Source: a virus | Lineage: Duplodnaviria > Heunggongvirae > Uroviricota > Caudoviricetes | Reading direction: 5' to 3' (one strand) | Length of the DNA: 64,000 nucleotides | Virus record (IMG/VR): IMGVR_UViG_2576861193_000004 | Coordinates: 32,001 to 96,000 of that record | In this document: positions 26,080 to 57,591 of the stretch, in pieces | Layout: each line of letters starts with the position of its first letter | How positions within the stretch are numbered: the stretch's first letter is position 1 | The notes under the pieces: model-generated | What the model saw: only the letters and a program-made list of their open reading frames with translations | What the model was told of the DNA's origin: nothing | The model's database searches: none | Made by a program: the position numbers and the translations under genes

Positions 26080-26711
26080 TATTCGTCCTCCCCTTCACTT
26101 CCATCATCTGTCGCATCAAATTCGCTTAGAGCTTCTTCTTCCAACGTCTCAAGCAATTCGTCATCGATGATTTCAGGCTCGTCGTCTTCCTGACGTAATT
26201 TCGCCACCTGGGAAGGCGTAAGCTCACCAAATACCAGGTTCGGAATTTCTTCCTCGTCATTTTCCGCATGATCCATGCCCAATGCTTTGGACGAAACTTC
26301 AAAGCATTTTGCAAGGGTATTACTGGCTCTCTGTAAGCTCTTGAGAGAATCCTCAATCGCCCCTAAAGGCCTACCCTCACGTTTGGCCGTAGTGACTTCG
26401 ACCATCACCATCTGCCCCAACGCATACGCCCAGCCGTCATAACGTGTACGACGTTCTTCTATCTTTTCCGCACGGGCTTTAGCGCGAAGCTCTGCGTCAG
26501 ATTTAAGAGACTCACGAACCATCTTCCCAACAGAGTCCGCGCCTTTCTCTAATCCTCGCTTTTTGAAATGTCTGGAGAGTGTTTCACGACGAATGCCGTA
26601 CTCTTCCTCCAGCTTTGAGAGTGTATATTCGCCTGACGTCCATTTGGCTTCAGCTTCGGCCCACTCCGCTGGTGTCAGGCGAGTTTTTACCTCGTCTTTT
26701 TCGACCGTCAT
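26079..26711 (-). CDS. terminase small subunit (putative)
   Basis: 210 aa with N-terminal HTH-like region and very acidic C-terminus, translationally coupled to terL. Confidence 0.6.
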   Translation of the reverse strand: MTVEKDEVKTRLTPAEWAEAEAKWTSGEYTLSKLEEEYGIRRETLSRHFKKRGLEKGADSVGKMVRESLKSDAELRAKARAEKIEERRTRYDGWAYALGQMVMVEVTTAKREGRPLGAIEDSLKSLQRASNTLAKCFEVSSKALGMDHAENDEEEIPNLVFGELTPSQVAKLRQEDDEPEIIDDELLETLEEEALSEFDATDDGSEGEDE

Positions 26712-26807
26712 AGATCCCTCTAAAACACACAGAGCGCGTCCATGCGCTCTAAAACAACTTGTTTACTGCATCTGCTAACCAACTTGTTTTCTGGGGTGTT
26801 TAATTAG

Positions 26808-41394: not shown

Positions 41395-41694
41395 TTACCA
41401 TTGCCAGCACTCTAGCCCTTCAACGACCGGTGCACCACAATCAAAATGTACAGAGTCAAAGCCTACATCAAGTACTTTCTGAATGTTAGCAATCGCGCCT
41501 TCGGATATACCATATCGACGCAAGTCATCTTTCCAGACATCATCCTGTAACCCGGCGTGGACAATACAACCGCCATCAATTTGTGAAACCCAATCCAGCT
41601 CATTGCTTGCGATCATGAATCGGCGAGCATCTTCCTCTGATGTATGAGATGAACTGATCAATGCCACCTGGTAGGCTTGGGTAATGTTCAACAT
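41395..41694 (-). CDS. hypothetical protein (early-type cassette gene)
   Basis: ORF preceded by two copies of the AACAAnTTGTT palindrome flanking a GATAAT -10-like hexamer. Starts about 160 bp downstream of the metG terminator. Confidence 0.5.
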   Translation of the reverse strand: MLNITQAYQVALISSSHTSEEDARRFMIASNELDWVSQIDGGCIVHAGLQDDVWKDDLRRYGISEGAIANIQKVLDVGFDSVHFDCGAPVVEGLECWQW

Positions 41695-41702
41695 TTCAAC
41701 AA

Positions 41703-41780
41703 CTCCGAAACAATTTGTTTTCTTATGTGGCTTATTATCTCAATCAACAAAAGGTAGAAAACAAATTGTTTTAGGGTTTG
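41703..41780 (-). promoter_or_regulatory. conserved promoter-palindrome cassette (two AACAAnTTGTT sites flanking GATAAT)
   Basis: GAAACAATTTGTTTTC (41707-41722) and GAAAACAAATTGTTTTA (41757-41773) around a minus-strand GATAAT hexamer. The same cassette is upstream of genes starting at 36729, 37454, 38405, 38888, 55263, 55986 and terS. Confidence 0.6.
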
Positions 41781-54693: not shown

Positions 54694-55263
54694 TCAATTA
54701 GAGCTTTGAAAGACTTTGTGTGGTTGTGTTGCGAGGTTATGTCGATGGCTTAACTCACGCATCATGTCTTCAAGGCGACTCTTTGTGTCGTCGAGTTGGT
54801 CGGCCATTGCTCCCAAAAGCTGACGAACGGCCATCGGATCATCGCTGTTTAGTGATGGCATTTTATAACCCGCCTGAGAAGACATAAGATTGAACGCAGA
54901 CATCAACATCGTTAGAGAGGATTTAAGCCCAGCAATTTCACGATCTTTGCTGGCAATAATCGCCTCACTCTTGTTAGTGTCATCAGTACGTTGAGTCTCG
55001 CTCACCATATCCAAAGTCGCCTGCAACTTATCAGCGAGCTCTTTTTCAGCAAGATAATGAACGCCGAAATGATGTGCTAAAGCTACAACCTGAGTTGGTT
55101 CTTCAAAGGTGGAATTAAAATTAAGTACTGTAAACAGTCTCTCAAATATGGAAACGTCTTCTGTTCCCCGAACAATACCTAACATTTTGACAAGTTCATT
55201 AGCATCCATTTCTTCGAATAGGGCGTTTTGTTCATCAGCTATTGCTTTGCATTTCTCGCACAT
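54694..55263 (-). CDS. hypothetical protein with N-terminal CxxC
   Basis: 189-aa ORF (MCEKCK...) preceded by the conserved promoter-palindrome cassette. Confidence 0.5.
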   Translation of the reverse strand: MCEKCKAIADEQNALFEEMDANELVKMLGIVRGTEDVSIFERLFTVLNFNSTFEEPTQVVALAHHFGVHYLAEKELADKLQATLDMVSETQRTDDTNKSEAIIASKDREIAGLKSSLTMLMSAFNLMSSQAGYKMPSLNSDDPMAVRQLLGAMADQLDDTKSRLEDMMRELSHRHNLATQPHKVFQSSN

Positions 55264-55560
55264 GTGTTTTCCTTAATTCTTAAACAAGTTGTTTTCTTAT
55301 TGGGTTTATTGTGATGTGGCATATAAGGGGAGCAAGCTAAACGTAAAGGTGCAAACTCTCTATTTTGGTCAACGAAACACAAGGGCCATTTGGCCCTTGC
55401 CATTAACACGTTGCTTTACGGACTAGCGGATAGGCGAAGTAGATCGCCAAACCAATGAGGACGCCATCAGAAATGACAGACATCATCTTTCCCGTAAAAT
55501 CCACCAACACCGCCATCACCAGAAGAGCAATGACGGTCACAAGCCGGAATCTCTCAAGCA

Positions 55561-55986
55561 TTAGAGATAAGCATCCAGTGACAACTGAAGCGCCTGGGCG
55601 ATCTTTTTCAGTGCCTGCTCTTCTTGTTCACCAATGCCGTCCTGGTCGGCAATATCAAGGCACAGACACAGAACATCGACCGCCTCTGGAGTGCCCGCAA
55701 TATCAGCCAGCTCACGCATAGCCTGCGCATTCGCAGAACGAGGGGACGCTTCGTAACGAGCACGGATATTGGCGCTCATTTGGGCAATTTCACCAGCAAA
55801 CGGAGAAAACGCAGGCAGAGCTGCAATTGTCTTCTCAAGAATGGCAATTTCTTTTGCGTCACATGTGCCGTCGGCATAGGAGATCATGTACGCGCCCCAC
55901 ACGGTGGCCTCAACCGCATCACGGTTCTCCATTTTTTTGACTTCGATAACAGCTTTACGAGTTTTCTTTTTGAAGAAACCTAACAT
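55561..55986 (-). CDS. TerB-like (tellurite-resistance TerB fold) protein
   Basis: 141 aa with a TerB-like helical pattern. Preceded by the conserved palindrome cassette. Confidence 0.5.
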   Translation of the reverse strand: MLGFFKKKTRKAVIEVKKMENRDAVEATVWGAYMISYADGTCDAKEIAILEKTIAALPAFSPFAGEIAQMSANIRARYEASPRSANAQAMRELADIAGTPEAVDVLCLCLDIADQDGIGEQEEQALKKIAQALQLSLDAYL

Positions 55987-56079
55987 GTGTTTTCCTTTTG
56001 TTATTTGTCAAAACAAGTTGTTTTATAGTTTCATAAATTGCTTACGCAAAGATGGTCAATGCATATGCACTAACAACCG

Positions 56080-56268
56080 TCAGAAATAACCAAGTACCGA
56101 ACCGACTGGAAAAACAAAAATCCCAACTACACGAGCCAAGGTCATGCCAGCCTGAAACTTGAGATCACCTGAGCAAACGAGTTTTATAATGTTGGATACC
56201 CAACCGGCGGCCATGAGAGCCAGAATTGCCAGCCAAATTTTCCCAAAGTGATTTGAAAGCCAGTTCAT
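56080..56268 (-). CDS. small membrane protein with two TM helices (holin-like)
   Basis: 62 aa with TM1 IWLAILALMAAGWV and TM2 VVGIFVFPVGSVLGYF. Start overlaps stop of upstream small ORF. Confidence 0.45.
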   Translation of the reverse strand: MNWLSNHFGKIWLAILALMAAGWVSNIIKLVCSGDLKFQAGMTLARVVGIFVFPVGSVLGYF

Positions 56269-56516
56269 ACAACCACCTTAGTCACAACATGATCCTGAGT
56301 AACTGGATGAACTTGAGGTATCGCATCCACCGTCATCCCATCCAGAGTGACAGGACGCTCTACTGTAGTGGTGGTAATTGTCGTCGACGGAGGTGTGGTG
56401 ATGGATGAATCCGGCATCAAAAGGCTCTGACCGGCTGGTACGGTAATCGCTGCCAGAGTTGCCAAAATCACTCCGTAGGCCATTGGCTTCAGTCGATTTC
56501 GTTGAAAATTTTCCAT
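56265..56516 (-). CDS. small protein with hydrophobic segment and Thr/Pro-rich linker
   Basis: ATG 56516 with SD AAGGA at 8 nt. Translationally coupled to the 2-TM gene. Lies inside a longer alternative-frame ORF (56278-56772). Confidence 0.35.
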   Translation of the reverse strand: MENFQRNRLKPMAYGVILATLAAITVPAGQSLLMPDSSITTPPSTTITTTTVERPVTLDGMTVDAIPQVHPVTQDHVVTKVVV

Positions 56517-56914
56517 GAGAACTGTCCTTGTGTGTCCGGGTTTCACGCAACACACGAGAAGCGACGCTATTACGCACCTTCTCCATGCCTACTGTCGTGC
56601 CCAGATTAGCTATGGCGGTAGCTTGCGCATTAATGCGCTTCTCCAGTTCAAACACTCGTTCTTCCAGTTCCGTAAGGCGTGCGGAAACACGACCACTAAA
56701 CAGCTCGGTCAGCACCAGGCGAATTGAACGGGGACGTTTATTGAAAGAAGTGAAAGACGTTTGACGGGCCATGTGGATTCCATTCAGTGTCAGAAAGAGT
56801 TGCGGCTGGCCAAGCCAGCCGCCTTTTGGCGTTCCATCCTGGAACCGTACCTAACCGGTACTTCGTCATCCTGACGATTTATAAGATACCTGATTTATTA
56901 TAGTGGGTAAATAC

Positions 56915-57523
56915 TTACTTATCTTTTTGTGACAAAAACCCAATGTCATGCTTGTGAGGCATATCAGCTGCGGAATAGGCGGCGATCTTCGCCAGACGGT
57001 CACACATTTCGTTCTCGCGATGACCTGCATGGCCTTTAACCCACTTCCAGCGGACATTATGACGACTGGCGGCCGCGTCGAGACGTTTCCAGAGATCCAC
57101 GTTTTTGACTGGCTTCTTCTCAGACGTGATCCATCCGTTACGCTTCCAGCCTTTCATCCAGAGCGTCATGCCGTTTTTAAGATACTGGCTGTCGGAATGC
57201 AGGATCACGTTGCAGGGGTACTTCAGACGCTCCAGCGCAATCAGGGCGCCCATCATCTCCATCCGATTGTTGGTCGTGCTGTGAAAGCCCTCAGAAAGCT
57301 CGCGCTCTTCGCCTCGATACTGGAGAACGATGCCGTAACCGCCCGGCCCGCCCGGATTTTTGAGGCAAGAGCCATCACTGAATACTTTTACGGTTTTGAG
57401 CTGGGGATTGAACTCGACTACGGGGGTTTTGAAGTTGGTACGGGATTGCTGGTGGGTTTGGTATCTGGCTTTGGACTTCGTGCGGCAGCCAGTATGTTGC
57501 CGGGCTGGGGTCTTGGTCGTCAT
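56915..57523 (-). CDS. ribonuclease H (RNase HI family) with N-terminal basic extension
   Basis: RNase HI core motifs ([53 protein letters not shown]). ATG 57523 with SD GGAG; track start 57580 is GTG. Confidence 0.85.
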
Positions 57524-57552
57524 TTTGGCTCCAGAATCGCGCGCCGCGACGA

Positions 57553-57591
57553 TTTTTTTTTCCCTCGCGCGTGTGCGCACGCGTGCGTGTA
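57553..57591. promoter_or_regulatory. T9 homopolymer followed by a 26-bp perfectly alternating pyrimidine-purine GC-rich tract
   Basis: Read directly: TTTTTTTTT then CGCGCGTGTGCGCACGCGTGCGTGTA, containing the 12-bp palindrome CGCACGCGTGCG. Lies 20-60 bp upstream of the RNase H ATG. Confidence 0.6.

What the first reader, a model, noticed from the sequence alone, without database searches (positions are those of the whole stretch)
55561..56030. Stand-alone TerB-like protein expressed from a phage early cassette
TerB-domain proteins are components of some recently described defence systems (for example Shango) and of stress-response operons. Here a 141-aa TerB-like protein is monocistronic behind the conserved palindrome cassette, without the ATPase or helicase partners.
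Basis: inference. Interest (0 to 1): 0.4.

Follow-up and report, generated by a model that had tools for sequence, protein, structure and literature searches.

The report
Phage P1-type TciA–TciB gene pair
The gene is real and does encode a TerB-family protein, but it is an already catalogued phage accessory gene, 79% identical to phage P1 TciA. It is not stand-alone: it is coupled to a tiny membrane-protein gene (TciB). What the pair does is still untested.

Summary
The ORF at 55561-55986 (minus strand, 141 aa) is real and is a genuine TerB-family protein. It passes the Pfam TerB cut-off, its profile matches solved Klebsiella TerB (2JXU, E=1.6e-11), and a confident model finds TerB-like structures first.

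It is not a new or orphan protein. It matches PHROG 632 and is 79% identical over its full length to phage P1 TciA. The 96%-identical region of phage-plasmid Cyrano is already annotated "P1 TciA-like".

"Stand-alone, monocistronic" is wrong. The TAA stop overlaps the ATG of a 52-aa two-helix membrane protein (DUF3927, TciB-like), and a hairpin follows. This pair, with a 1- or 4-nt overlap, was found in every locus examined, from temperate and virulent phages.

The upstream palindrome is real: 12 copies against 0.29 expected. It is conserved before tciA in SSU5-like elements. In Cyrano lysogens the two genes are at the transcript floor, so lytic-phase expression is plausible, but "early" is unproven.

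Nothing links it to Shango-type defence: no PADLOC hit and no ATPase or helicase nearby.

The best reading, which is inferred, is a soluble acidic TerB module held at the inner membrane by TciB that modulates membrane or ion state during lytic growth. Interest is low.

The parts
55561..55986 (-). tciA-like CDS, 141 aa including the stop. TerB-family protein with a basic N-terminal tail (residues 1-21, net charge +5) and an acidic six-helix body (net charge -10). It carries two DGx5E motifs, at residues 39-46 and 116-123.
55403..55561 (-). tciB-like CDS, 52 aa including the stop. DUF3927 micro-protein with two hydrophobic segments, predicted to form an inner-membrane helical hairpin. Its ATG overlaps the tciA stop codon by one base (TAATG).
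   Evidence: Pfam DUF3927 E=1.9e-12. phrog_1470 'TciB-like' E=7.8e-21. Sequence read. Hydropathy. A TciB homologue follows tciA in every one of the 169 loci held, though the Vibrio locus matches only by construction of the model.
55379..55400 (-). Terminator-like G+C-rich hairpin (9-bp stem) immediately after the tciB stop. Its T-tract is weak.
   Evidence: Consensus scan. Sequence read.
55993..55997 (-). Shine-Dalgarno-like AAGGA, 6 nt before the tciA ATG. The 14-nt string AAGGAAAACACATG is shared with the next cassette, at 55263.
   Evidence: Sequence read.
56010..56024 (.). Perfect 7+1+7 palindrome AAAACAAgTTGTTTT, a putative operator for an unidentified dimeric DNA-binding protein.
   Evidence: 12 copies with at most 2 mismatches in the window against 0.29 expected. 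11 of the 12 lie 7-64 nt upstream of a minus-strand ORF start. Conserved 38-41 nt upstream of tciA in SSU5-like loci, and absent from lambdoid and P1 contexts.
56030..56059 (-). Weak promoter-like hexamers, TTGACC-N18-TATGAA. They would place the transcription start inside the palindrome. This is inferred only.
   Evidence: Read from the sequence. It was NOT called by the sigma-70 consensus scan.

Best explanation
This is the SSU5-like phage-plasmid copy of the phage P1-type tciA-tciB accessory module.

Shown:
- TciA is a soluble, acidic, single-domain TerB-family protein homologous over its whole length to TerB of the terZABCDE operon.
- It is translationally coupled to TciB, a 52-aa two-segment hydrophobic DUF3927 protein.
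- The two genes form one unit, bounded by a palindrome-bearing upstream region and a downstream hairpin.
- The pair is conserved as a pair in temperate and strictly virulent phages.
- The orthologous genes are silent in Cyrano lysogens, and the P1 genes are dispensable for plaque formation.

Inferred:
- TciB anchors TciA to the cytoplasmic face of the inner membrane, taking the place that the integral membrane protein TerC has next to TerB in ter operons.
- The complex is made when the palindrome-controlled promoter is released during lytic development.
- There it binds divalent cations through the paired DGx5E motifs and stabilises the inner membrane or ion state of the infected cell against depolarising insults. 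Such insults would include pore-forming colicins, superinfecting phage and membrane-triggered abortive responses.

It is not a tellurite-resistance determinant on its own and is not a Shango-type defence system.
For: Identity:
- Pfam TerB; PHROG 632 and 1470.
- 79.4% identical to P1 TciA.
- Cyrano annotation 'P1 TciA-like / TciB-like'.
- Profile hit to KP-TerB 2JXU at E=1.6e-11 over residues 13-135.
- AF2 model of six helices, pLDDT 88.2.

Coupling:
- TAATG overlap.
- A TciB homologue follows tciA in every one of the 169 loci held, with the start overlapping the stop by 1 nt (121 loci) or 4 nt (22 loci).
- The pair is also present in N4-like, jumbo, lambdoid and P7 phages at 35-64% identity.
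- DUF3927 genes sampled from Serratia, Dryocola and E. coli always follow a TerB gene.

Membrane link:
- TciB hydropathy, and TciA's basic tail with acidic body.
- TerB reported as the partner of integral-membrane TerC and as membrane-associated or amphitropic (as cited in PMC11003894, PMC12054061 and the 2022 and 2025 bioRxiv preprints).
- A Vibrio N4-like phage carries a TerC/Alx gene directly upstream of its TerB-like gene.

Timing:
- CYRAN_85/86 are at the read floor in LB lysogens, while the putative repressor is expressed.
- P1 tciABC lies in the C1-controlled ban operon.
- The palindrome is conserved upstream.

Not a tellurite-resistance gene: in Y. pestis, terCDE confers resistance and terZAB does not (PMC4633105).

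Non-essential in P1 (PMC10695390).
Against: - No experiment on any TciA or TciB protein was found, and the physical TciA-TciB interaction is untested.
- TciB shows no detectable similarity to TerC.
- The consensus scan did not call a promoter at the palindrome.
- The palindrome's binding protein is unknown, and the Cyrano immunity region has no match in this window.
- Expression timing differs between phage types: the P1 repressor-controlled ban operon against the position after Q in lambdoid prophages. No single 'early' role is therefore implied.
- The protective-membrane function rests on analogy with phenotypes of the whole ter cluster, not of TerB alone.
Confidence: 0.55

Rival explanations
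1. Lysogenic-conversion resistance module. TciA/TciB would be expressed in the lysogen and protect the host, like the Ter/Phi/PacB phenotypes of the terZABCDE cluster, against tellurite, pore-forming colicins or other phages.
For: [quoted passage not shown]
- The ter cluster has been linked to phage inhibition and colicin resistance (Whelan 1995, as cited in PMC7371120).
- The pair sits in the classic moron position after Q in lambdoid prophages.
Against: - The Cyrano orthologues are at the transcript floor in lysogens and are not listed as morons.
- The pair also occurs in strictly virulent N4-like and jumbo phages.
- There are no TerC, TerD or TerZ partners nearby.
- Tellurite resistance maps to terCDE, not terZAB.
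Confidence: 0.15
2. Host-takeover inhibitor of cell division. The pair would block septation during lytic growth, which is the 'ci' in Tci.
For: - terZAB, not terCDE, causes filamentation in Y. pestis and E. coli (PMC4633105).
- In P1 the genes share an operon with a dicF-like region.
Against: - Filamentation has never been assigned to TerB alone. Lethality in the R478 cluster was mapped to terZA.
- No FtsZ- or Min-related motif was seen.
- No phenotype is reported for P1 tciA knock-down.
Confidence: 0.12
3. Anti-defence decoy. A phage-made TerB domain would compete with, or poison, host TerB-containing membrane-surveillance systems (Shango, Bunzi, Dionysus, or the ter cluster's Phi function).
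For: - TerB domains are the presumed sensor parts of those systems.
- The pair occurs in virulent phages, including jumbo phages. Dionysus targets Pseudomonas jumbo phages.
- Lytic-phase expression is plausible.
Against: - This is purely an analogy, with no experimental report found.
- There was no PADLOC similarity to the defence TerB proteins.
- The invariant acidic motifs and the obligate TciB partner suggest an intrinsic activity rather than mimicry.
Confidence: 0.1

Closest known systems
Phage P1 TciA / TciB (tciABC, in the ban operon); PHROG 632 and PHROG 1470
   Same: - 79.4% identical to P1 TciA over all 141 residues.
- Followed by an overlapping DUF3927 / TciB gene.
- Carried on a phage-plasmid.
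- Probably under repressor control.
   Different: - No tciC: there is no similarity, and a hairpin follows tciB directly.
- Not embedded among tRNA genes, and not upstream of a ban helicase gene.
- It has its own palindrome-bearing upstream region instead of the C1 operator Op72.
TerB of the terZABCDE tellurite-resistance cluster (Klebsiella KP-TerB, PDB 2JXU)
   Same: - Same single-domain size, about 140-150 aa.
- Homologous across the whole domain (E=1.6e-11).
- Same all-helical TerB-like fold.
- The same two acidic motifs align.
   Different: - No TerZ, TerA, TerC, TerD or TerE neighbours.
- The downstream membrane partner is a 52-aa DUF3927 protein rather than the multi-pass TerC, and the two show no detectable similarity.
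- A single-sequence search does not reach 2JXU, so the relationship is distant.
Shango (SngABC), Bunzi and Dionysus anti-phage systems with TerB-domain components
   Same: All contain a TerB domain that is thought to act at the membrane.
   Different: - No ATPase, helicase or pore-forming partner here.
- No PADLOC model hit.
- Encoded by phages, including virulent ones.
- Silent in the Cyrano lysogen.
DjlA N-terminal TerB-like domain (E. coli membrane-anchored DnaK co-chaperone)
   Same: A TerB-like module held at the cytoplasmic face of the inner membrane by a transmembrane helix (bioRxiv 10.1101/2024.08.29.610257). This is the same geometry as inferred for TciA with TciB.
   Different: - In DjlA the anchor and the domain are one polypeptide with a J domain.
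- Here the anchor is a separate gene product and there is no J domain.

Membership tests
TerB family (Pfam PF05099) | Scores above the Pfam gathering threshold | tested here: met
   31.6 bits against a cut-off of 24.4, E=2.2e-7, covering residues 33-136.
TerB family (Pfam PF05099) | Homology to an experimentally solved bona fide TerB across the domain | tested here: met
   Profile of 40 homologues against the PDB: 2JXU (KP-TerB) at E=1.6e-11, residues 13-135 aligned to 19-144. The single-sequence search missed it.
TerB family (Pfam PF05099) | All-alpha TerB-like fold | tested here: met
TerB family (Pfam PF05099) | Paired acidic (A)DGx5E motifs, the putative metal site | tested here: met
   DGTCDAKE at residue 39 and DGIGEQEE at residue 116. 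D39, G40, E46, G117 and E122 are invariant or nearly so. Metal binding itself was not tested.
terZABCDE tellurite-resistance cluster | TerC and TerD-family genes in the same locus | tested here: not met
   Neighbours within about 2 kb are DUF3927, unknown PHROGs and RNase H. The Cyrano annotation for +/-4 kb shows no ter genes.
P1 TciA/TciB module (PHROG 632 + 1470) | Full-length similarity to P1 TciA | tested here: met
   79.4% identity over residues 1-141. PHROG 632 E=1.5e-63.
P1 TciA/TciB module (PHROG 632 + 1470) | An overlapping downstream DUF3927 (TciB) gene | tested here: met
   TAATG overlap. DUF3927 E=1.9e-12 and phrog_1470 E=7.8e-21. A TciB homologue follows tciA in all loci checked.
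P1 TciA/TciB module (PHROG 632 + 1470) | A third small gene, tciC | tested here: not met
   A hairpin follows tciB directly. The only overlapping ORF has no similarity to P1 TciC. tciC is also missing from the other non-P1 contexts seen.
Shango defence system | A TerB-domain SngA together with the SngB ATPase and SngC helicase | tested here: not met
   No PADLOC hit for TciA, TciB or three neighbouring ORFs. No ATPase or helicase domains in the neighbours.
Bunzi / Dionysus TerB-containing systems | A TerB protein together with transmembrane or pore-forming effector genes of those systems | tested here: inconclusive
   No PADLOC hit, but the 2023 library predates Dionysus. The only membrane partner here is a 52-aa DUF3927 protein, unlike the four-TM pore-forming DinC described in the preprint.

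The most novel reading that the evidence does not exclude
The tciA-tciB pair could be a phage counter-defence or membrane-guard module. A phage-made TerB domain, tethered by TciB, would blunt host membrane-surveillance immunity (TerB-containing Shango, Bunzi or Dionysus, or the Phi function of ter clusters), or would prevent depolarisation-triggered abortive infection. That would explain why the pair is kept by temperate and virulent phages from N4-like to jumbo phages.
Probability: 0.1. Interest if true: 0.55.

Novelty: already known. Interest (0 to 1): 0.15.

Why it matters
For this window it matters little. The gene is a routine member of a named, widely annotated phage family, and identical copies are already in public phage collections.

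The broader point is that the family is really a two-gene module, TerB plus DUF3927. It is conserved across very different phages and still has no tested function. A simple deletion or interaction study in P1, Cyrano or PhiR41_1 would fill a gap in P1 biology that has been open since the gene was named by homology. It could also clarify what TerB domains do at the membrane, a question now relevant to several anti-phage systems.

Tried and rejected
- Single-sequence phmmer against the PDB gave only noise. A profile was needed.
- PADLOC gave no hit for TciA or TciB. The weak Csn2 hits of the neighbouring 189-aa ORF were judged spurious.
- NCBIfam had nothing above cut-off.
- hhalign of the TciB alignment against a phage TerC showed no similarity, so 'TciB is a TerC fragment' is rejected.
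- tRNA-gene linkage was checked. tRNA genes flank the pair in P1/P7-like, some lambdoid, jumbo and Pseudomonas phages, but are absent from the SSU5-like loci scanned and from the window. It is not a general feature.
- Natural TerB-DUF3927 'fusions' (P0099, P0127) come from one contig each and look like frameshifts, so they were not used as evidence.
- I tried to tie the palindrome to the prophage repressor. The Cyrano immunity region has no match in the window and no such palindromes beside the repressor gene.
- Pfam and PHROG searches on the palindrome-controlled genes were uninformative.
- The P1 genome paper and the Anantharaman 2012 Ter paper are not held. What I say about them rests on citing papers and record annotations.
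- Searches of viral contigs with the Vibrio-type query found nothing, and the Pseudomonas-type query found one locus.
- A second structure job on a fusion protein was not run, because the tool reports no inter-domain confidence.

Full report
**Observation.** The window has a 141-aa ORF at 55561..55986 on the minus strand.
- Read on that strand, an AAGGA Shine-Dalgarno sequence lies 6 nt before the ATG.
- A perfect 7+1+7 palindrome, AAAACAAgTTGTTTT, lies at 56010-56024, 23 nt upstream of the ATG.
- The ORF matches Pfam TerB (PF05099) at E=2.2e-7, 31.6 bits against a curated cut-off of 24.4.
- So the core observation, a TerB-like 141-aa protein behind a palindrome, is correct.

**Not monocistronic.**
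- The TAA stop (55563-55561) shares its last base with the ATG of a 52-aa ORF at 55403..55561, in the arrangement TAATG.
- That ORF matches Pfam DUF3927 (E=1.9e-12) and phrog_1470, 'TciB-like inhibition of cell division or resistance to colicin' (E=7.8e-21).
- The only terminator-like hairpin in the unit lies right after this second gene, at 55400-55379.
- The unit is therefore palindrome region, then tciA, then tciB, then hairpin. 'Monocistronic' and 'stand-alone' are wrong.

**What element this is.**
- The surrounding DNA is 93-96% identical to the E. coli phage-plasmids Cyrano (pLF82), CMS-2020a and PhiR41_1, and the RNase H side matches Salmonella phage SSU5.
- In Cyrano the two genes are already annotated 'P1 TciA-like protein' and 'P1 TciB-like protein'.
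- The protein is 79.4% identical over all 141 residues to TciA of phage P1 and scores E=1.5e-63 against PHROG 632, 'tellurite resistance'.
- Copies with 100% protein identity exist in IMG/VR.
- 224 clusters at 90% identity match the single protein, and many are named 'tellurite resistance TerB family protein' or 'tellurite/colicin resistance protein'.
- This is a named, widely annotated family.

**TerB membership.**
- A single-sequence search of PDB sequences found nothing meaningful.
- A profile of 40 homologues spanning 35-98% identity hit the NMR structure of Klebsiella TerB, 2JXU, at E=1.6e-11 over residues 13-135. It also hit the COG3793 'tellurite resistance protein' 2OU3 weakly.
- An AlphaFold2 model built on that alignment is confident (pLDDT 88.2, pTM 0.83). 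It has six helices, and the first 9 residues are disordered.
- Foldseek also puts 2H5N first, with probability 1.0 and TM about 0.55, though its E-value is only 0.03.
- I regard 2H5N as a TerB-like superfamily structure from my own knowledge of the structural classifications. 2OU3 is labelled as such by its depositors.
- The two DGx5E motifs (residues 39-46 and 116-123) are invariant or nearly so across the family and align with the corresponding motifs of KP-TerB.

**The pair is the conserved unit.**
- In all 82 loci first collected (80 viral contigs at 84% identity or more, plus Cyrano and P1), a TciB homologue follows TciA directly.
- After adding P7-type and other loci, HMM searches found the pair in 148 of 169 loci outright. 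In the other 21, the TciB hit ended immediately downstream, and they had been missed only because my ORF caller picked a longer upstream start.
- The Vibrio locus matches the TciB model only by construction, because its downstream ORF was in the alignment the model was built from.
- The tciB start overlaps the tciA stop by 1 nt in 121 loci and by 4 nt in 22.
- The pair is present at 35-64% TciA identity in several other phage types:
  - the virulent N4-like Salmonella phage FSL SP-076;
  - the Erwinia jumbo phage ChrisDB;
  - the lambdoid phage JLK-2012;
  - P7;
  - Pseudomonas phage phiK7B1.
- Going the other way, DUF3927 proteins sampled from Serratia, Dryocola and E. coli chromosomes always lie directly after a TerB gene (141-143 aa in all but one place, where the called gene is 222 aa). 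In lambdoid prophages that position is between antiterminator Q and the lysis or NanS-p genes.
- The one exception seen is a Vibrio N4-like phage. Its downstream ORF is not clearly TciB, but a TerC/Alx-family membrane protein gene sits directly upstream of the TerB-like gene.

**Properties of the two proteins.**
- TciA has no hydrophobic segment. Its first 21 residues are basic (net +5, conserved M-x-G-x-F-K-K-K) and the rest is acidic (net -10).
- TciB is strongly hydrophobic, with two segments separated by a short D-F-T-G/S turn and with basic residues at both ends. This fits a helical hairpin with both termini in the cytoplasm.
- TciB has no detectable similarity to TerC.

**The palindrome cassette.**
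- AAAACAAsTTGTTTT with at most 2 mismatches occurs 12 times in the window against 0.29 expected.
- Eleven copies lie 7-64 nt upstream of the start of a minus-strand ORF, usually just after a GATAAT-like hexamer.
- In all SSU5-like relatives the palindrome is kept 38-41 nt before the tciA ATG even where flanking bases differ. It is absent from lambdoid and P1 contexts. It therefore belongs to the phage-plasmid backbone, not to tciA.
- The genes behind the other copies are almost all of unknown function.
- At tciA I can read only weak promoter-like hexamers (TTGACC-N18-TATGAA), and the consensus scan called no promoter there.
- The binding protein is unknown. The Cyrano immunity region has no counterpart in this window and no such palindromes beside its repressor gene.

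**Expression.**
- In the published LF82 transcriptomes, CYRAN_85 and CYRAN_86 have log2(fpkm+5) of 2.32-3.18 in overnight LB. That is the floor, the same as the terminase genes.
- The putative repressor CYRAN_45 is at 6.4-6.75. Neither CYRAN_85 nor CYRAN_86 is among the 13 Cyrano morons (PMC9928086).
- In P1, tciABC lies inside the C1-repressed ban operon.
- This favours lytic-phase rather than lysogenic expression. 'Early' is not shown for this element, and in lambdoid prophages the pair is in the late operon.

**What is known about function.**
- I found no experiment on any TciA or TciB.
- P1 tciA, tciB and tciC are scored non-essential by CRISPRi (PMC10695390).
- The P1 name was given by homology.
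- For the ter cluster, tellurite resistance maps to terCDE, while terZAB is linked to filamentation (PMC4633105).
- TerB is reported as the interaction partner of the membrane protein TerC (Turkovicova 2016, as cited in PMC11003894 and PMC12054061).
- TerB domains in Shango, Bunzi and Dionysus are proposed, without mechanism, to act in membrane surveillance.
- DjlA carries a TerB-like domain tethered to the inner membrane.
- PADLOC models give no hit for TciA or TciB, and no ATPase or helicase is nearby.

**Most likely mechanism (inferred).**
- TciB anchors TciA at the cytoplasmic face of the inner membrane, in the position TerC holds beside TerB.
- The complex is produced during lytic development. 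Using the paired acidic motifs, it modulates divalent-cation or membrane state so that the infected cell resists depolarising insults.
- I put about 0.95 on the identity and pair architecture and about 0.3 on this specific mechanism.
- The rivals are a lysogenic-conversion resistance function, a cell-division inhibitor and an anti-defence decoy. Each is listed with its refuting experiment.

**Verdict.**
- The gene is a known P1-type TciA, paired with TciB. It is not a stand-alone TerB protein, and it has no evidence of a Shango-like role.
- Novelty: already known. Interest: low (0.15).
- The residual interest is that the widespread TerB-DUF3927 phage module remains functionally untested.

Noticed in passing
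window 26751-26790, 34358, 36749, 37513, 38416, 38900, 40094, 41707-41772, 55281, 56010: The window holds a regulon-like set of 12 copies of the palindrome AAAACAAnTTGTTTT, against 0.29 expected. Eleven lie just upstream of minus-strand ORF starts, typically 12 nt after a GATAAT-like hexamer. Two copies precede a 210-aa phrog_867 'DNA binding domain' gene (26082-26711), which is a candidate autoregulated binder. Two more flank the promoter of a DUF5983 gene (41398-41694). The binding protein is unknown.
   Followed up: partly
window 56080-56268 (-) and 56278-56772 (-): Directly upstream of the tciA cassette, on the same strand, lie two ORFs. One encodes a 62-aa protein with two hydrophobic segments (phrog_6006). 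The other encodes a 164-aa protein with a coiled-coil N-terminus and a Ser/Thr/Asp-rich tail (phrog_10411). Both are of unknown function. No terminator was predicted between them and tciA, so read-through into tciA is possible.
   Followed up: no
window 54694-55263 (-) with palindrome at 55281-55295: The next cassette downstream has the same 14-nt RBS-to-start string, AAGGAAAACACATG, as tciA. It drives a 189-aa protein of unknown function (phrog_5508). That protein gives weak PADLOC Csn2 hits (best E=9e-4), which are probably spurious.
   Followed up: partly
L002 (P1), L086 (P7), L085 (JLK-2012), L084 (ChrisDB), L087 (phiK7B1), L089-L131: In P1/P7-like elements, some lambdoid prophages, an Erwinia jumbo phage and a Pseudomonas phage, the tciA-tciB pair is flanked by tRNA genes (Asn, Thr, Ser, Met/Ile and others). 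This is not so in the SSU5-like loci scanned or in many other prophages, and the window has no tRNA genes at all.
   Followed up: partly
L088 375-1923 (Vibrio phage vB_VpaP-MS02): A TerC/Alx-family membrane protein gene lies directly upstream of the TerB-like gene in an N4-like Vibrio phage, and the ORF after it is not clearly TciB-like. This suggests TerC and TciB may be alternative membrane partners for phage TerB proteins.
   Followed up: no
L172 4531-4767 (Dryocola prophage): A gene hitting Pfam Acb2_Tad1_hairpin (an anti-CBASS/anti-Thoeris sponge family) sits just after the lysis cassette, in the same late operon that carries tciA-tciB.
   Followed up: no
window 56915-57580 (-): The RNase H gene (Pfam RNase_H, E=8e-46) has an N-terminal extension of about 60 aa, rich in basic residues, when read from the first possible start. 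Cyrano annotates a shorter product, so the start codon is uncertain.
   Followed up: no
P0099, P0127: Two database proteins are TerB-DUF3927 fusions of 196-197 aa, one P1-type and one lambdoid-type. Each comes from a single contig. The junction sequences look like frameshifts at the overlapping stop and start rather than true fusions.
   Followed up: partly
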